A stretch of 64,000 nucleotides of DNA from a virus. The notes beneath the pieces were generated by a model. The model did not search any database. It was not told where the DNA came from and was given only the letters and a program-made list of their open reading frames with translations. Location: positions 1 through 64,000 of IMG/VR virus record IMGVR_UViG_3300013099_000018; one strand, written 5' to 3'. Of this stretch, positions 3,408 through 54,350 are shown piece by piece (the stretch's first letter is position 1; each line of letters starts with the position of its first letter). A program made the position numbers and the translations under genes.

Positions 3408-5699
3408 TTAGATATTACTTACAACTTCAATATCTTTTTGCTCTGGAAAGCCATTCTCTTCGATGTCGTCTAAGAGCTTAAGCCATTTCTCTCCTACGAT
3501 GTCCCATGTTGCGTTTTCGAGAACCCATTTTCTCATGTTTCTCCCGTGCTTCTTGGCTCTTTCTGGATACGAGTAGTAATACCAGAGTGCAAAGGCTATA
3601 TCTTCTACGTTAAGCACAGCTTGTCTTGAGGATGTCCTATTCATCCACATGAACGCTACTGGTTTGATTCCTAAGCCTCTTTCCTTGTAGATTACATTTG
3701 CTGTAATCTCGTAGACTTCTTCGCCAAGCAATTCTCCCGTTGCTCCCCAATCCGTAGCTATTGCTGGAGTTTCGCATAAGCCACTCTCTACCAACACAAT
3801 CTCAAATGAGCCTCCTTTTACAGTGTTTACTAAGCAATTAGCCTTGCAATAGAGCTTTCTCATTATTTCAGACGGTAGATAACCATTCGTAACCTTGAAC
3901 ATGACCTTATCCCTTACCTTTATGTTGTATTTATCTTCAATCGCATCTATGATTTCATAGAGGTTATATCCACCGTATTTTATCGGTTCTGTGTTAATGT
4001 AGAGAAATGCATTTGGCTCAACATCTCTTAGGAAGAGAGCGAAAGCCTCTATGATTTCTGGAACATTCTCTCTTATCCCATTGTTATCTACAACTGCTAC
4101 GACAAAGAAATCTATATCATCTGGTATGAAATCCACTTGAGGGTCTTTCTCTGGATAGTAGATGTTTGGGTCAGCACCGTGAGGTATTGGTTCTGTAATC
4201 TTGTGCTTTGGAACATCTCTACTTTGTTCAAGTATCTTTTTACCCCAATTGGTCATCGGAACGAGGAGTTTTACACCTTCGGAACGCATCATCGGTATGT
4301 AACTCCTTTGGACAGGGTCATGGTCTAAGATGCAATTATGAATCAAGACTTTGTTTGCGAAATAGTTTCCTGTTGTTGTGGTAATATCATATACAATCCC
4401 TTCGATGTTTTTCTCACGATATATTTTGATGACCTTCTTGCAGTTTGTAATTTCTTTACCTCTTCCCAAATTCTCAATTCCTCTTCCGTGTATGCATCTT
4501 TGTATTTTTGTTTCATTCTCGATTCCAAGAATTTCAACACCAACTCTGCACGTTTTCTCTTTGTGATTAGATACTTGCGTAACTCTTTCAGAATTGGGTA
4601 AACTTTGTATCCATGAATTTGAATTCTGTATATTGGTCTCTTCGCTTTTGTCCCTTCCCGTTGTCCTTTCCAATGTTTCACATCCAACCATTTGGCAATT
4701 GTCTCTATGGTTTCTTTGTGCGTGTTCACAAATGCTATGTGAGGATTCAATAAGTATCTCGGTTTCCTTTGCTTGTTGTAATGTTTCACCACAGTTATAG
4801 TTATTGTCCCCTCTCCATCCAGAAATCCCGCAAGATAACCCTTTTGCCACTCTTCTAAATTCTGAATTACTTTCTCCATTTTCGCAATAGATTGCTCTAT
4901 TTTCGTTCCTTTGGTTGTAATTAAATCCGACATGCTCTTTACTAAACCCAATCTTGTTGCTTTGCGGATTACTGCTTTCTCCGACCTGTTCAATGCTTTT
5001 GCTATTTGCTCTACAGTCATTTTCGTATAATTTCTCTTTAAGAATTCCACTTCTTGCTCTGTCCATCTCCTCTTCATCAATAGTTATTTTGGTCGATGGT
5101 CTATAAATATGTAACCCAACAACTCTATCACCTACTCTCAAATCTGAGGCTTGCTTCCAACCATCAATCGTATAGATTTCATGGTCTTCCGTGCATTTCA
5201 ATTTAGAACCATCTTCAAACTCTATAACCACTAAATCTTCATCCGTTGGTATAATATGAATTGCTAAGACTTTTGTCCAAACTACTTTGCCAACCTCAAA
5301 ATCAAATCCCAAAACTCTATCCTCTATAGTTAAATCCCTAATCTTTTTGATGCCATTTGGAGTTATGACTTCCGTATCACCTTCAACACACCAATGTATG
5401 ATGTTGGCATCTTGAAGTTTTGCTATTTGCCTTGAGATTACCCATCCGTCAAAGTGTAATATTTGAACATCGTATTCGTTGTATCTTTCGAAGAATACAG
5501 GATGAACTAATGTTCCATTTCCACCTATGATTTTAACTTGCCTATCTTCAATCATAAACGGGATTTCTGCACCTTCGTAACCAAAGTAAGAATAGATGTC
5601 CACTTCGTGTTTCTTTGCGAGATGATATGCTAAGTAGCGAGTGCAAACTCCGAAACCAGAGCTTACGAATGGTGCTACTGAATAGTATGCGATTTTCAT
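3408..5699 (-). CDS. GT4 (GT-B) glycosyltransferase precursor with one intein (about 411 aa after splicing)
   Basis: MKIAYYS...SGFG N-terminus, IPHGADP, KGGSFEIVLVES...PAIATDWGATGE motifs; intein from Cys104 (CVEGDT) to IHN, followed by Cys. Confidence 0.9.
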   Translation of the reverse strand: MKIAYYSVAPFVSSGFGVCTRYLAYHLAKKHEVDIYSYFGYEGAEIPFMIEDRQVKIIGGNGTLVHPVFFERYNEYDVQILHFDGWVISRQIAKLQDANIIHWCVEGDTEVITPNGIKKIRDLTIEDRVLGFDFEVGKVVWTKVLAIHIIPTDEDLVVIEFEDGSKLKCTEDHEIYTIDGWKQASDLRVGDRVVGLHIYRPSTKITIDEEEMDRARSGILKEKLYENDCRANSKSIEQVGESSNPQSNKIGFSKEHVGFNYNQRNENRAIYCENGESNSEFRRVAKGLSCGISGWRGDNNYNCGETLQQAKETEILIESSHSICEHAQRNHRDNCQMVGCETLERTTGRDKSEETNIQNSNSWIQSLPNSERVTQVSNHKEKTCRVGVEILGIENETKIQRCIHGRGIENLGRGKEITNCKKVIKIYREKNIEGIVYDITTTTGNYFANKVLIHNCILDHDPVQRSYIPMMRSEGVKLLVPMTNWGKKILEQSRDVPKHKITEPIPHGADPNIYYPEKDPQVDFIPDDIDFFVVAVVDNNGIRENVPEIIEAFALFLRDVEPNAFLYINTEPIKYGGYNLYEIIDAIEDKYNIKVRDKVMFKVTNGYLPSEIMRKLYCKANCLVNTVKGGSFEIVLVESGLCETPAIATDWGATGELLGEEVYEITANVIYKERGLGIKPVAFMWMNRTSSRQAVLNVEDIAFALWYYYSYPERAKKHGRNMRKWVLENATWDIVGEKWLKLLDDIEENGFPEQKDIEVVSNI
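4343..5077 (-). CDS. single-motif LAGLIDADG homing endonuclease with an N-terminal Myb/HTH-like domain, overprinted in the +1 frame of the intein
   Basis: GYLAGFLDGEGTITI motif, FVNT, LRKYLITKRKRAELVLKF; N-terminal RRWTEQEVEFLK...IAKALNRSEKAVIRKA; ATG at 5077 (track TTG 5080). Confidence 0.85.
   Translation of the reverse strand: MKRRWTEQEVEFLKRNYTKMTVEQIAKALNRSEKAVIRKATRLGLVKSMSDLITTKGTKIEQSIAKMEKVIQNLEEWQKGYLAGFLDGEGTITITVVKHYNKQRKPRYLLNPHIAFVNTHKETIETIAKWLDVKHWKGQREGTKAKRPIYRIQIHGYKVYPILKELRKYLITKRKRAELVLKFLESRMKQKYKDAYTEEELRIWEEVKKLQTARRSSKYIVRKTSKGLYMILPQQQETISQTKS
5098..5110 (-). promoter_or_regulatory. putative archaeal TATA box for a leaderless transcript of the nested endonuclease
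   Basis: Minus strand reads ATATTTATAG, then 23 nt, then ATG(5077); similar spacing to TTTATATAA-22 nt-ATG at 52952-52983. Confidence 0.6.
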
Positions 5700-5714: not shown

Positions 5715-5873
5715 TCAGATTGCTTCTCTACCCAAATCTACGAGCTTGCCTATTTTGTATTCATGTCTGTAAGAATGCCTACACTTAAGACAATGGTAGT
5801 ATTCATCCTCATCTGGTCTTACGTGGCTTTTCCCTAAATAAACCATTTCTACACCACATCTAGGACACAACAT
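5715..5873 (-). CDS. small zinc-ribbon protein (52 aa)
   Basis: Below the track cutoff: MLCPRCGVEM...YHCLKCRHS; GAGGTG SD. Confidence 0.65.
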   Translation of the reverse strand: MLCPRCGVEMVYLGKSHVRPDEDEYYHCLKCRHSYRHEYKIGKLVDLGREAI

Positions 5874-5923: not shown

Positions 5924-6070
5924 TTATAAATCTTTCTTTAACCACTTATACAATGGAGCGATATGCCCACATTCTAAACACATTAGCATGGCGTAACTAC
6001 TGTCGACTCTTCTATATATTTCATATTCTTTACCACAATATGGACATTTAAGGTGAAGCTTACGAATCAT
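5924..6070 (-). CDS. small zinc-ribbon protein (48 aa)
   Basis: Below the track cutoff: MIRKLHLKCPYCGKE...MCLECGH; GAGGT SD. Confidence 0.65.
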   Translation of the reverse strand: MIRKLHLKCPYCGKEYEIYRRVDSSYAMLMCLECGHIAPLYKWLKKDL

Positions 6071-49910: not shown

Positions 49911-51278
49911 TCACCCCCAAGCTTTTATCTGGTTTACAACTTTTCTGTCGATGCCTAAACTTTCAAGCTTACTGATGAATTCATTGAAGTTGTTACTACT
50001 CCATGCTATTTTTGTTAGGATAGTGTTTAGTTTATCATCAGTTTCGACAAAAATAATTTTAGTTTGTAGTTGTGTTGTTTTGCTTTTAGTTCTATATTTG
50101 GTATTTTGCTTAATTGCAAATTTGCTTAAGTCAAATTCAGAATCTGTGGATTCTTCATATTTTGGATATTTAAATCGGTATTCTAGAGCTTTTAGTAAGT
50201 TTACCCCTAGTTCTTTGCTAAGTTTTATAAGTGGTTTTCTTATAAACTTAATAAGTAGTTTAAACTTATTCCTAAGATATAGTTTATCTAATTTGTTTAA
50301 TTCTTTACCATAATAGTTTATCTTTTCATAGATTTCTTTAGTTTTGTTGAAGTTTGGTTCATCGAAAGGAATTTCGTAAGTTTTTAGAGCAATTGCTAAT
50401 AACGTAGCTGTAAGCAAAACATGGTTATCAACGTCTTTAGGTGAATCTGGGAATCTTATTTCTACAGCATAATCCTTAAGATGTACACAACAGTATTTGT
50501 TTATGAAATGGTTTTTGTAGTTGTCATATTCATCTGGGAATTCCTTATATTCATATCTTTCGTAAGTATCAGGAAAACAAAACATATAGCTAAGCAAATC
50601 GCTAAAGAATAGTATATTTGAGGCAATAATTGTATCATAATCGAGCCATGACTTATTGCCATTTTCCCAGGAGATATTAATGTGTCCACCACATTTATCT
50701 TCAATGCTTATGTTTTCTTTTCCAATTTCTGAAACAATAGCCTTAATAGCATGCCAATAGTCTTTTAATGAGCTAAATGGTTTAGTAACAAATTCCATGC
50801 CACAAGATTCATCGTAATAGTAGTTATCTAAGTATGGTTCAATCTTTGAAATATCAATGTCATCTAAGCTATAATAGTCATTATATGGGCAATAATCCCT
50901 ATTGTAAATGTATTCACAATCACTACACCTATCGCAACAATCACACACCAGTTCTTGCCACAAATAGTTTTCTTGACAAACTTCGCAAATATCTCTATCA
51001 TCATTTTCTTCAAGATATCCATGCCTTATTGCGTAATCCCTTATGTCTTCGGGATTACATCTTTCGCAATATAGTTGTTCATTTTGGCAATATTCACAAA
51101 CTGGGCAATTGTCGCAAATTGCACAATAAGAACAGCTTTCACAGTCATAACCGCTTATTACTGTTTCGATTTCTGTTCCTATTTTGTACATGAGTTTTGG
51201 TTTTATTGCTATTTGCTGTTTTTCCGATTCTTTTCCTGATTCTTCTATTATTTTGTCAATAATCTTATCTAACTCCAT
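49911..51278 (-). CDS. amidoligase (COOH-NH2 ligase fold) with a large Cys-rich insertion
   Basis: IGTEIE, GMEFVTKP, CGGHINIS, VEIRFPD; leaderless start MELDK 22 nt after TTTATATAA (track start 51320). Confidence 0.75.
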   Translation of the reverse strand: MELDKIIDKIIEESGKESEKQQIAIKPKLMYKIGTEIETVISGYDCESCSYCAICDNCPVCEYCQNEQLYCERCNPEDIRDYAIRHGYLEENDDRDICEVCQENYLWQELVCDCCDRCSDCEYIYNRDYCPYNDYYSLDDIDISKIEPYLDNYYYDESCGMEFVTKPFSSLKDYWHAIKAIVSEIGKENISIEDKCGGHINISWENGNKSWLDYDTIIASNILFFSDLLSYMFCFPDTYERYEYKEFPDEYDNYKNHFINKYCCVHLKDYAVEIRFPDSPKDVDNHVLLTATLLAIALKTYEIPFDEPNFNKTKEIYEKINYYGKELNKLDKLYLRNKFKLLIKFIRKPLIKLSKELGVNLLKALEYRFKYPKYEESTDSEFDLSKFAIKQNTKYRTKSKTTQLQTKIIFVETDDKLNTILTKIAWSSNNFNEFISKLESLGIDRKVVNQIKAWG

Positions 51279-51348
51279 GTTTAACATTATGGTGTTATTG
51301 TTATATAAACTTTGTGGCATTAATCGTAATTACACTTGTGTAAGTACA

Positions 51349-51530
51349 TATATGAAATTTCATGCATGAATTTTCATATACGAAATTTTGTGTATAAAGT
51401 TTCGTATATGAGATTTCATATAGGAATTTTCATATATGAAATTTTGTGTATAAAATTTCATGCACAAATTTTCATGCATAAAATTTTGTGAACAAAATTT
51501 CATGCACAAAATTTCATGCACAAAAATTCA
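51349..51530. repeat. degenerate 13-14 bp quasi-palindromic tandem repeats (ATGAAATTTCAT-like); mirror 52731-52912
   Basis: About 13 units such as AAAATTTCATGCAC. Confidence 0.85.
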
Positions 51531-52100: not shown

Positions 52101-52160
52101 CTGGCGGAAACCCACATTATATTATTACACGTGTAATAATATAATGTGGGTTTCCGCCAG
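52101..52160. other. putative hairpin telomere or head-to-head junction
   Basis: CTGGCGGAAACCCACATTATATTATTACAC|GTGTAATAATATAATGTGGGTTTCCGCCAG in a non-coding, repeat-rich context. Confidence 0.65.
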
Positions 52161-52982
52161 CGGTTTTTTATAATTCGGTTTTTATATTTTTGTGCGAATC
52201 CGTCTGTGCCATTTTGTTTGCGGTTTTTTATAATTCGATTTTTATAGTGCTGTGTGGATTTCAATTTGCCTCATCATCATGGCTCGACTGTGTCTTTGTG
52301 CATTGCTCCGTTTGTATAATTTAAGATGAATAAATCTTGTGTATGCAAACCAAGTATAAATTGCTTTTTATTATTAGGATTATATTAAAACAAGCCATTG
52401 ATTCATGCTGAAATTGCATTAGTGTAATACGTCTTGTGAAATTGAAGGTACGCAATTTCAGGCACGAAATTACAGCTATGCAAGTACCACAGAGTAATTA
52501 CAAATATGTAAGTTCAAAAGTGCAATTAAACATAGCTAATTGGGAACGCCAAATTACAGCTATTGAATTTCGTCAAACTAATTACAATTGTGTACTTACG
52601 CTTGTGGAATTTAAGGCATGGAAATACGTGCTTGAGATTATAGGTTTGCAAATATGAAAATGCAAATTTTGATTAGCAATTAAGTAAATGGTATTTTAGA
52701 ATTGTAATATAGGCTATGTAATTCGACTTGTGAATTTTTGTGCATGAAATTTTGTGCATGAAATTTTGTTCACAAAATTTTATGCATGAAAATTTGTGCA
52801 TGAAATTTTATACACAAAATTTCATATATGAAAATTCCTATATGAAATCTCATATACGAAACTTTATACACAAAATTTCGTATATGAAAATTCATGCATG
52901 AAATTTCATATATGTACTTACACAAGTGTAATTACGATTAATGCCACAAAGTTTATATAACAATAACACCATAATGTTAAAC

Positions 52983-54350
52983 ATGGAGTTAGATAAGATT
53001 ATTGACAAAATAATAGAAGAATCAGGAAAAGAATCGGAAAAACAGCAAATAGCAATAAAACCAAAACTCATGTACAAAATAGGAACAGAAATCGAAACAG
53101 TAATAAGCGGTTATGACTGTGAAAGCTGTTCTTATTGTGCAATTTGCGACAATTGCCCAGTTTGTGAATATTGCCAAAATGAACAACTATATTGCGAAAG
53201 ATGTAATCCCGAAGACATAAGGGATTACGCAATAAGGCATGGATATCTTGAAGAAAATGATGATAGAGATATTTGCGAAGTTTGTCAAGAAAACTATTTG
53301 TGGCAAGAACTGGTGTGTGATTGTTGCGATAGGTGTAGTGATTGTGAATACATTTACAATAGGGATTATTGCCCATATAATGACTATTATAGCTTAGATG
53401 ACATTGATATTTCAAAGATTGAACCATACTTAGATAACTACTATTACGATGAATCTTGTGGCATGGAATTTGTTACTAAACCATTTAGCTCATTAAAAGA
53501 CTATTGGCATGCTATTAAGGCTATTGTTTCAGAAATTGGAAAAGAAAACATAAGCATTGAAGATAAATGTGGTGGACACATTAATATCTCCTGGGAAAAT
53601 GGCAATAAGTCATGGCTCGATTATGATACAATTATTGCCTCAAATATACTATTCTTTAGCGATTTGCTTAGCTATATGTTTTGTTTTCCTGATACTTACG
53701 AAAGATATGAATATAAGGAATTCCCAGATGAATATGACAACTACAAAAACCATTTCATAAACAAATACTGTTGTGTACATCTTAAGGATTATGCTGTAGA
53801 AATAAGATTCCCAGATTCACCTAAAGACGTTGATAACCATGTTTTGCTTACAGCTACGTTATTAGCAATTGCTCTAAAAACTTACGAAATTCCTTTCGAT
53901 GAACCAAACTTCAACAAAACTAAAGAAATCTATGAAAAGATAAACTATTATGGTAAAGAATTAAACAAATTAGATAAACTATATCTTAGGAATAAGTTTA
54001 AACTACTTATTAAGTTTATAAGAAAACCACTTATAAAACTTAGCAAAGAACTAGGGGTAAACTTACTAAAAGCTCTAGAATACCGATTTAAATATCCAAA
54101 ATATGAAGAATCCACAGATTCTGAATTTGACTTAAGCAAATTTGCAATTAAGCAAAATACCAAATATAGAACTAAAAGCAAAACAACACAACTACAAACT
54201 AAAATTATTTTTGTCGAAACTGATGATAAACTAAACACTATCCTAACAAAAATAGCATGGAGTAGTAACAACTTCAATGAATTCATCAGTAAGCTTGAAA
54301 GTTTAGGCATCGACAGAAAAGTTGTAAACCAGATAAAAGCTTGGGGGTGA
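52983..54350 (+). CDS. amidoligase with Cys-rich insertion (mirror copy)
   Basis: Identical translation to 49911..51278. Confidence 0.7.
   Translation: MELDKIIDKIIEESGKESEKQQIAIKPKLMYKIGTEIETVISGYDCESCSYCAICDNCPVCEYCQNEQLYCERCNPEDIRDYAIRHGYLEENDDRDICEVCQENYLWQELVCDCCDRCSDCEYIYNRDYCPYNDYYSLDDIDISKIEPYLDNYYYDESCGMEFVTKPFSSLKDYWHAIKAIVSEIGKENISIEDKCGGHINISWENGNKSWLDYDTIIASNILFFSDLLSYMFCFPDTYERYEYKEFPDEYDNYKNHFINKYCCVHLKDYAVEIRFPDSPKDVDNHVLLTATLLAIALKTYEIPFDEPNFNKTKEIYEKINYYGKELNKLDKLYLRNKFKLLIKFIRKPLIKLSKELGVNLLKALEYRFKYPKYEESTDSEFDLSKFAIKQNTKYRTKSKTTQLQTKIIFVETDDKLNTILTKIAWSSNNFNEFISKLESLGIDRKVVNQIKAWG

What the first reader, a model, noticed from the sequence alone, without database searches (positions are those of the whole stretch)
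5077..5112. Archaeal promoter apparently hidden inside intein codons, positioned for the nested nuclease
Seen: the intein codons for LHIYR (TTA CAT ATT TAT AGA) contain TTTATAG, ending 23 nt upstream of the nuclease ATG, with no SD site. Leaderless genes elsewhere in the window show similar spacing (52952-52983, and upstream of 43730 and 27082). The box lies just after the N-terminal Hint part (GDRVVGL). Inference: the nuclease has its own leaderless mRNA, so no frameshifting is needed and it could be expressed at a different time from the glycosyltransferase.
Basis: partly seen in the sequence, partly recalled or inferred. Interest (0 to 1): 0.75.

Follow-up and report, generated by a model that had tools for sequence, protein, structure and literature searches.

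The report
Possible internal promoter for intein-nested nuclease
In an archaeal filamentous virus, a weak TATA-like box inside a glycosyltransferase intein sits at the right distance to start a leaderless mRNA for a homing nuclease encoded out of frame in the same DNA. The nested gene is real and under selection, but the promoter remains a plausible inference that the sequence alone does not prove.

Summary
On the minus strand TTTATAG(A) lies at 5107-5100, inside codons LHIYR. It is followed by 22-23 nt without a Shine-Dalgarno site, then the ATG (5077) of a 244-aa HTH + single-motif LAGLIDADG nuclease. That nuclease is read in the +1 frame of a glycosyltransferase intein.

The genome has a clear class of leaderless genes (TTTATATA-like 8-mer, 21-23 nt, ATG), and the nuclease fits this spacing exactly. 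The box itself is poor:
- It has G at position 7 and no upstream BRE-like ACC..AAAG element.
- It scores 4.1-4.3 bits, against 8-11.5 for good promoters here.
- 3.7-5.5% of all ATGs score as well, and a similar decoy lies 120 nt upstream.
- Codon choice says nothing: 32% of synonymous recodings recreate the box.

DNA of intein-bearing relatives could not be fetched, so synonymous-site conservation is untested.

The context is strong. Both frames are under selection (P of an open host frame about 5e-12, and most inferred changes are silent in the nuclease frame). All 19 metagenome alleles that span the site lack the intein.

I give about 0.5 that this is a working promoter. The scan has found out-of-frame intein nucleases before on other DNA (bacterial phages), and 2025-26 preprints describe the kind. 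This is an archaeal-virus member.

The parts
5100..5107 (-). TATA-like octamer TTTATAGA (alternative register TATTTATA-G, 5109-5101), inside codons I198-Y199-R200 of the glycosyltransferase precursor
   Evidence: sequence. Matrix score is 4.1 bits at spacer 22 and 4.3 bits at spacer 24, or 1.4 bits with BRE positions included.
5078..5099 (-). 22-nt spacer between the box and the ATG, with no Shine-Dalgarno motif. Contains the TAA stop of the nuclease frame (5086-5084) and a TTG (5080).
   Evidence: The spacing equals that of the leaderless genes of this genome, 21-23 nt.
5077..5079 (-). Predicted transcription start (A of the ATG, or 1-2 nt upstream). Inferred, not mapped.
   Evidence: Inference from the TATA position. 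The T-G step at 5079/5078 fits a pyrimidine-purine initiator.
4343..5077 (-). Nested nuclease gene, 244 aa: Myb/GcrA-like HTH plus a single-motif LAGLIDADG_1 core, in the +1 frame of the host gene. The last ~30 codons overlap the C-terminal splicing blocks of the intein.
   Evidence: Pfam PF00961 at 1.1e-6, above its cut-off. Homologues. PDB sequence matches to I-CreI and I-MsoI. Selection statistics.
4335..5390 (-). Intein (C104 to N455 of the precursor; +1 residue is C456), whose ~220-codon middle is the nuclease gene read in another frame
   Evidence: Pfam Intein_splicing 6.8e-15, Hint and PT-HINT. Empty-site alleles DANIIHW|CILD. AF2 single-sequence model: N-terminal Hint part pLDDT about 60-70, middle below 40.
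3408..5699 (-). Host gene: GT4-type glycosyltransferase precursor, 763 aa, with its own SD (AAGGTG), in a long minus-strand operon

Best explanation
A single-motif LAGLIDADG homing-endonuclease gene lies in the +1 frame inside the middle of a glycosyltransferase intein of an archaeal filamentous virus. The most likely expression route is a weak internal archaeal promoter. TBP/TFB would bind the TATA-like octamer TTTATAGA at 5107-5100, at the edge of the N-terminal Hint part. RNA polymerase would then start at or 1-2 nt before the ATG at 5077, and the resulting leaderless mRNA would be translated without a Shine-Dalgarno site. The long operon mRNA is meanwhile translated in the host frame into a precursor that splices out the intein.

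Shown: the anatomy, the spacing, the absence of an SD, the dual-frame selection and the existence of intein-free alleles. Inferred: that the box binds TBP, that a start site exists there, and any difference in timing.
For: - Spacing. The genome has two promoter layouts. In one, a TTTATATA-like 8-mer is followed by 31-38 nt containing the SD GAGGTG. In the other it is followed by 21-23 nt and then ATG directly (13 genes). The nuclease has 22 nt (24 in the other register) and no SD.
- In this genome every other case where TTTA[AT]A starts 29-32 nt before an ATG that opens 100 or more codons is a gene start. These are 30160, 38457, 43730 and 51278.
- The gene must be expressed. Comparing two 90%-identical variants, 44 inferred nucleotide changes in the nuclease region give only about 7 nuclease-frame amino-acid changes. 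Of the unambiguous changes in the 212-codon linker, 32 of 39 fall on the nuclease wobble position.
- All 19 metagenome alleles that span the insertion site are intein-free, so the element is polymorphic.
- A start independent of the host frame is supported by a stop 7 nt upstream in the nuclease frame and by homologues that begin at the same N-terminus.
- Established knowledge: internal cistrons in crenarchaea normally use an SD, while 5'-terminal AUGs are read on leaderless mRNAs. About 69% of Sulfolobus solfataricus mRNAs are leaderless, and 1153 internal start sites were mapped in Haloferax volcanii (PMC4983044). Promoters inside archaeal coding sequences are common (PMC2710873).
- The 13 codons before the ATG are identical in all four intein-bearing protein variants, while the linker just after differs at 17.5% of codons. 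This is weak evidence: P about 0.08 at the amino-acid level, and about 0.015 if both visible codon positions were neutral.
Against: - The box is a poor match. It has G at octamer position 7, where this genome's promoters have T (77%) or A (20%).
- Its core score is 4.1-4.3 bits, against 8-11.5 for clear leaderless promoters.
- It lacks the ACC..AAAG element seen upstream of most boxes. Its extended score of 1.4 bits is lower than all 22 training sites (range 3.9-22.9), and 5.5% of all ATGs do as well.
- A decoy, GGTTATAGAG at 5229, scores 5.7 bits and has an ATG at spacer 24 that opens only a few codons.
- Given the amino acids, 32% of random synonymous codon choices recreate a box of this quality.
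- The base before the ATG is G, whereas leaderless genes here mostly have C or T.
- About 20 of 63 genes have neither an SD nor a box, so other initiation routes exist in this genome.
- There are no transcript data, and no DNA from relatives.
Confidence: 0.5

Rival explanations
1. The TATA-like hexamer is a chance product of AT-rich codons. The nuclease is translated at a low level from the long late-operon mRNA by SD-independent internal initiation at an unstructured A-rich stretch.
For: - 3.7-5.5% of all ATGs have an equal or better box at this spacing.
- A decoy lies at 5229.
- 32% of synonymous recodings give the box.
- About 20 of 63 genes in this genome have neither an SD nor a leaderless box yet are presumably translated.
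- A homing nuclease needs only a little protein.
Against: Most of the genes with neither signal sit within 20 nt of the preceding gene, where termination-reinitiation coupling is possible. Coupling is not available in the middle of a gene, in another frame. The exact match to the leaderless spacing would then be coincidence (p about 0.01-0.05). From established knowledge of Sulfolobus translation (not tested here), internal AUGs without an SD are poorly used.
Confidence: 0.3
2. The 5' end at the ATG is made by RNA processing of the operon transcript, not by initiation. The processed, leaderless-like mRNA is then translated.
For: Nothing direct. It would explain expression without a strong promoter.
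Against: No recognisable processing signal was found. Matches to the box spacing would be irrelevant to this route.
Confidence: 0.05
3. The nuclease is made by a programmed +1 frameshift from the intein frame, as a fusion to the N-extein and the N-terminal Hint part.
For: Both frames are on the same strand, and the shift would be +1.
Against: - The TAA at 5086-5084 in the nuclease frame leaves only 2-3 codons in which to shift, and no slippery or stop-hungry site is there.
- Homologues start at the same Met as free-standing proteins.
- A fusion would lose the C-terminal splicing blocks.
Confidence: 0.03
4. The nuclease gene is no longer expressed and is a recently silenced relic, so no promoter is needed.
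For: Homing endonucleases decay after fixation. The promoter-like signal is weak.
Against: There is strong purifying selection in the nuclease frame between 90%-identical variants. The LAGLIDADG motif GFLDGEG is intact. The intein is far from fixed: all 19 metagenome alleles that span the site lack it.
Confidence: 0.05

Closest known systems
Non-canonical inteins with the homing endonuclease outside the intein frame (actinobacteriophage survey, bioRxiv 10.1101/2025.01.02.630785; cyanobacterial dnaX intein, bioRxiv 10.64898/2026.09.14.751524, title and abstract start only)
   Same: The splicing blocks are intact. The in-frame middle has no recognisable fold. A complete nuclease ORF sits in another frame between the splicing blocks. 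The nuclease is related to free-standing HEGs, and the element is still mobile in the population. The LAGLIDADG core here even matches, at 25.9% identity, the minus strand of Gordonia phage minor-capsid genes. These look like the antisense LAGLIDADG cases of that survey, but I did not check the gene strand in those records.
   Different: This one is in an archaeal virus with a glycosyltransferase host gene. The LAGLIDADG is on the same strand in +1 (the survey reports LAGLIDADG only antisense, and endonuclease VII out of frame on the same strand). It has an N-terminal Myb/GcrA-like HTH. That paper does not mention promoters at all (0 occurrences).
ShiLan insertion in phage methylases with a hidden out-of-frame HNH (PMC11855218)
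   Same: The host frame is open through an out-of-frame homing nuclease, no RBS is detectable, and the authors speculate about leaderless translation.
   Different: ShiLan has no splicing domains and no promoter was proposed. Here the splicing blocks are present, and a positioned TATA-like box gives a concrete start-site prediction.
Archaeal leaderless promoters of this same genome (e.g. upstream of 27082, 38457, 43730, 44704-side 43856, 51278)
   Same: An A/T octamer is followed by 21-23 nt and then ATG, with no SD.
   Different: Those have TTTATATA-type boxes of 8-11.5 bits, usually with an upstream ACC..AAAG element, and lie between genes. The nuclease's box scores 4 bits, lacks that element and lies in translated codons.
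Intragenic promoters / internal TSS in archaea (PMC2710873; PMC4983044)
   Same: Transcription initiates inside a coding sequence in the sense direction.
   Different: Here the internal transcript would encode a different protein in another frame.

Membership tests
Archaeal TBP/TFB promoter | A/T-rich TATA octamer centred about 26-27 nt upstream of the start site | tested here: inconclusive
   The position fits: the octamer runs from -30 to -23 if the start is the A of the ATG. The sequence matches the consensus TTTATATA at 7 of 8 positions, with G at position 7. The matrix score is 4.1-4.3 bits, against 8-11.5 for clear promoters here.
Archaeal TBP/TFB promoter | Purine-rich BRE directly upstream of the TATA box (in this genome ACC..AAAG) | tested here: not met
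   The upstream sequence is GGGTTACA(TA). The extended matrix score is 1.4 bits, below all 22 training promoters.
Archaeal TBP/TFB promoter | Mapped primary 5' end; TBP/TFB-dependent transcription | not testable with these tools
   No transcript data are available.
Leaderless gene | No Shine-Dalgarno motif within about 16 nt, and an AUG start | tested here: met
   no GGTG/GAGG/AGGT. ATG at 5077.
Leaderless gene | Same box-to-ATG spacing as the genome's other leaderless genes | tested here: met
   Spacing is 22 nt (register 1) or 24 nt (register 2), against 21-23 nt in 13 genes.
Leaderless gene | Pyrimidine at -1 relative to the start | tested here: inconclusive
   The base before the ATG is G, while other leaderless genes mostly have C or T. 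A start at G5078 after T5079 would fit.
Intein with out-of-frame homing endonuclease | Intact splicing blocks: Cys1, TxxH, terminal HN, +1 Cys | tested here: met
   C104, TEDH and IHN/C456 are present. Pfam Intein_splicing 6.8e-15.
Intein with out-of-frame homing endonuclease | Complete nuclease ORF in another frame between the splicing blocks, with the host frame kept open by selection | tested here: met
   In other genes the -1 frame has a 10.1% stop rate and a longest open run of 71 codons, so P(244 codons open) is about 5e-12. Synonymous resampling gives a mean of 18.4 stops, with a minimum of 5 in 20000 draws. Of 84 risk codons, 0 are preceded by NNT, against 38 of 159 elsewhere.
Intein with out-of-frame homing endonuclease | Intein-free alleles of the host gene exist (mobility) | tested here: met
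   All 21 JGI loci lack the intein by BLAST, and 19 of them show the junction DANIIHW|CILD.
LAGLIDADG_1 (I-CreI-like, single-motif) endonuclease | Profile match above the curated cut-off, and one LAGLIDADG motif with an acidic residue | tested here: met
   PF00961 scores 29.9 bits against a cut-off of 23.1. The motif is YLAGFLDGEG. PDB matches to engineered I-CreI/I-MsoI constructs reach 6.6e-7 to 1.5e-6; wild-type I-CreI chains match at about 3e-3 to 1e-2.
LAGLIDADG_1 (I-CreI-like, single-motif) endonuclease | Cleaves the intein-free target site | not testable with these tools
   Needs an enzyme assay.

The most novel reading that the evidence does not exclude
A free-standing homing-endonuclease cassette, promoter included, invaded a mini-intein of an archaeal virus. 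Its promoter and coding DNA are now also translated as the intein's linker. The embedded TATA box gives the nuclease its own leaderless transcript, uncoupled from the late structural operon. This would be the first concrete answer to how out-of-frame intein nucleases are expressed, and a snapshot of how intein-nuclease unions arise.
Probability: 0.3. Interest if true: 0.65.

Novelty: new member of a known kind. Interest (0 to 1): 0.4.

Why it matters
Recent papers on inteins and insertions with hidden out-of-frame nucleases leave open how the nuclease is made. One paper only speculates about leaderless translation (PMC11855218). Archaeal promoters have a rigid box-to-start distance, so this element gives a sharp, cheap test: a primary 5' end at 5077-5080. 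If confirmed, it would show that regulatory DNA can be carried inside translated, later spliced-out protein sequence. It would also show that the selfish nuclease can be expressed independently of its host gene. If not confirmed, the box is an ordinary AT-rich coincidence.

Tried and rejected
The single metagenome scan returned only intein-free alleles. Protein-pattern and degenerate-DNA scans of viral contigs found nothing.
- Looking for parallel archaeal cases among distant nuclease relatives gave no archaeal nested analogue. They are mostly free-standing genes in phage contigs and Nitrososphaerota MAGs. One is in frame in an intein (L036), and one sits inside a long ORF in a high-GC contig (L026).
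- Codon-choice evidence for the box was rejected as uninformative (32% by default).
- Frameshift expression was rejected on anatomy.
- The single-sequence AF2 model of the intein was of low confidence (mean pLDDT 38.5). It suggests only weakly that VVGLHIYRP forms the last strand of the N-terminal Hint part, so I cannot say whether the box belongs to the old intein or came with the invading cassette.
- The cyanobacterial dnaX preprint could not be opened.
Full report
**What is there**

The window is the first 64 kb of a 104,260-b IMG/VR record that is a perfect palindrome of 2 x 52,130 b. The real genome is therefore about 52 kb. Its coat protein matches Pfam Sulf_coat_C (2e-8), and a neighbouring protein weakly matches SFV1 VP4. 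This is an archaeal filamentous virus with 35% G+C.

On the minus strand, ORF 3408-5699 (763 aa) is a GT4-type glycosyltransferase interrupted by an intein running from C104 to N455, with +1 residue C456. Pfam gives Intein_splicing 6.8e-15, plus Hint and PT-HINT over residues 101-194.

In the +1 frame, 4343-5077 encodes a 244-aa protein. It has a Myb/GcrA-like HTH and a single-motif LAGLIDADG_1 core (PF00961, 29.9 bits against a cut-off of 23.1; motif YLAGFLDGEG). It has sequence matches to I-CreI and I-MsoI structures.

**The observation**

The minus strand reads TTA CAT ATT TAT AGA (L H I Y R). TTTATAG occupies 5107-5101. Then come 23 nt, then the ATG at 5077. The nuclease frame has a TAA at 5086-5084, so the only possible starts are the TTG at 5080 and the ATG at 5077.

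The homologues P0001 and P0002 begin at the same Met-Lys...Trp-Thr N-terminus. No SD motif is present in the 25 nt upstream.

**Promoter grammar of this genome**

I called 63 genes and trained a matrix on the upstream regions of those with a gap of at least 35 nt. Two layouts are obvious:
- Leadered: a TTTATATA-like octamer, then 31-38 nt containing a strong SD (GAGGTG), then ATG.
- Leaderless: the octamer, then 21-23 nt, then ATG, with no SD. This class has 12 genes, plus the corrected start at 51278.

Most good boxes are preceded by an ACC..AAAG element that looks like a BRE. The nuclease fits the leaderless spacing: 22 nt in the register TTTATAGA, or 24 nt in the register TATTTATA-G.

Among the 14 ATGs in the genome with TTTA[AT]A starting 29-32 nt upstream, five open ORFs of 100 or more codons. 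Four of these are ordinary gene starts and the fifth is the nuclease.

**How good is the box?**

It is not good.
- Position 7 of the octamer is G, where the training promoters have T (77%) or A (20%).
- The core score is 4.1-4.3 bits, against 8-11.5 for clear leaderless promoters. 3.7% of all 2052 ATGs score as well at spacers of 20-25 nt.
- With the BRE-like positions included, the score is 1.4 bits. That is below every one of the 22 training sites (3.9-22.9), and 5.5% of ATGs do as well.
- A decoy lies 120 nt upstream: GGTTATAGAG at 5229 scores 5.7 bits and has an ATG at spacer 24, but it opens only a few codons.
- Given the amino-acid sequence and the genome's codon usage, 32% of synonymous recodings give a box of this quality. 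The codons therefore carry no sign of selection for it.
- TATA-like words are mildly depleted on the sense strand of genes: 131 observed against 152 +/- 11 expected for weak matches, and 18 against 30 +/- 5 for strong ones. This makes a chance box slightly less likely, but only slightly.

**Why the nuclease still needs a start signal**

The dual coding is real.
- In all other genes the -1 frame has a stop every 10 codons, and its longest open run is 71 codons. P(244 codons open) is about 5e-12.
- Synonymous resampling of the nuclease gives a mean of 18.4 host-frame stops, and never fewer than 5 in 20,000 draws.
- None of the 84 nuclease codons that begin AA, AG or GA is preceded by a codon ending in T, against 38 of 159 elsewhere.

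The 90%-identity cluster of the precursor holds three further intein-bearing variants. Against P0012, the linker differs at 17.5% of host-frame codons. By contrast, the N-extein differs at 2.9% and the N-terminal splicing part at 2.2%.
- 32 of the 39 unambiguous inferred changes in the linker fall on host-codon position 1, which is the nuclease wobble position.
- Applying the 44 most parsimonious changes alters only about 7 of 244 nuclease residues. One of these is an artefact of an ambiguous two-base choice.

The nuclease frame is therefore under purifying selection.

A scan of JGI metagenomes found 21 alleles of the glycosyltransferase, and none carries this intein. Nineteen of them show the intact junction DANIIHW|CILD. 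Two carry a different, canonical in-frame intein at another site. The element is a polymorphic, presumably homing, insertion, so the nuclease must be made.

**Routes to expression**

- Frameshifting is unlikely. The stop in the nuclease frame leaves 2-3 codons in which to shift, there is no slippery site, and free-standing homologues start at the same Met.
- Termination-reinitiation coupling probably serves the many SD-less genes that abut their neighbours. It cannot work in mid-gene in another frame.
- That leaves two routes: a 5'-terminal AUG on its own transcript, or inefficient SD-independent internal initiation.

Leaderless translation and internal start sites are common in archaea. About 69% of Sulfolobus solfataricus mRNAs and 72% of Haloferax volcanii mRNAs are leaderless, and 1153 internal start sites were mapped in the latter (PMC4983044). 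Promoters within coding sequences are also well documented (PMC2710873).

Weighing the exact spacing and the need for expression against the weak box, I put the internal leaderless promoter at about 0.5. Chance plus internal initiation gets about 0.3, and the remainder goes to processing, silence or frameshifting.

**Where the box sits in the protein**

The Pfam Hint matches end at residues 185-194. A low-confidence single-sequence AF2 model (mean pLDDT 38.5) puts VVGLHIYRP in the last strand of the N-terminal part, with everything after residue ~203 unstructured.

The box is therefore at the canonical nuclease-insertion point, on the border between fold and linker. I cannot tell whether it arrived with an invading nuclease cassette or arose in place.

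The 13 codons before the ATG are identical in all four protein variants. This is weak evidence of constraint (P about 0.08 to 0.015), and it could equally reflect the fold.

**What is known**

Inteins whose nuclease lies in another frame or on the other strand were described in 2025-26. The actinobacteriophage survey is bioRxiv 10.1101/2025.01.02.630785. For the cyanobacterial dnaX intein I could see only the title and the start of the abstract. The ShiLan HNH insertion is PMC11855218.

This scan has also recorded several bacterial-phage cases with promoter-like start signals. The nuclease core here matches the minus strand of Gordonia phage minor-capsid genes, which look like the antisense LAGLIDADG cases of the survey, and it also matches a free-standing gene of Halogranum tailed virus 1.

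New here are the archaeal-virus setting, the glycosyltransferase host gene, a same-strand +1 LAGLIDADG with an HTH, and a start-site prediction that archaeal promoter geometry makes sharp. None of the readable papers analyses promoters.

**Verdict**

The arrangement is a new member of a known kind. The promoter is a reasonable hypothesis that 5'-end mapping could easily test, but the sequence evidence for it is marginal.

- The metagenome records behind the loci are not held.

Noticed in passing
window 1-64000; centre at 52130/52131: The whole 104,260-b record is a perfect palindrome (x + x' = 104261). The centre reads ...ATTATTACAC|GTGTAATAAT... Tandem repeats of 14/28/42/56 nt flank it at 51347-51530 and 52731-52914. 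This is either a hairpin-ended linear genome (rudivirus-like terminus) read through its hairpin, or a fold-back assembly artefact. The true genome is about 52 kb.
   Followed up: partly
L020:1144-3555 and L021 (JGI metagenome contigs): Other alleles of the same glycosyltransferase lack this intein. They carry a different, canonical intein with an in-frame two-motif LAGLIDADG domain at VKGG|C...HN|SFEI, so the gene is a homing target at two or more sites.
   Followed up: partly
window 5229-5220 (minus strand): A decoy: GGTTATAGAG scores 5.7 bits on the promoter matrix and has an ATG 24 nt after the octamer, but that ATG opens only a few codons. It is a useful internal control for any start-site mapping.
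   Followed up: yes
window 49911-51320 (minus) and mirror 52941-54350: The 469-aa ORF probably starts at its 15th codon (ATG 51278; mirror 52983). That ATG has a perfect TTTATATA + 23 nt leaderless promoter; the upstream ATG has none.
   Followed up: partly
Gordonia phage records H3-H11 (e.g. NC_055856.1 9700-10023): The LAGLIDADG core of this archaeal-virus nuclease matches (25.9% identity, 1e-4) the minus strand of the record across actinophage MuF-like minor capsid genes. These look like the antisense intein nucleases of the 2025 survey (gene strand not checked). If so, the same free-standing nuclease family would have entered inteins in both domains.
   Followed up: no
L036:2339-4135 (IMG/VR contig): A relative of the same single-motif LAGLIDADG family sits in frame inside an intein (…TPDHPF…PGDIV…GWLAGFLDGEG). 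This is the 'contiguous' end state proposed for such invasions.
   Followed up: no
L038-L045 (Nitrososphaerota MAGs): The closest cellular relatives of the nuclease are free-standing genes with an N-terminal C2H2 zinc finger in place of the Myb-like HTH.
   Followed up: no
window 5715-5873 and 5924-6070 (minus): Two small four-cysteine zinc-ribbon-like ORFs (52 and 48 aa) lie between the two intein-bearing genes, directly upstream of the glycosyltransferase.
   Followed up: no
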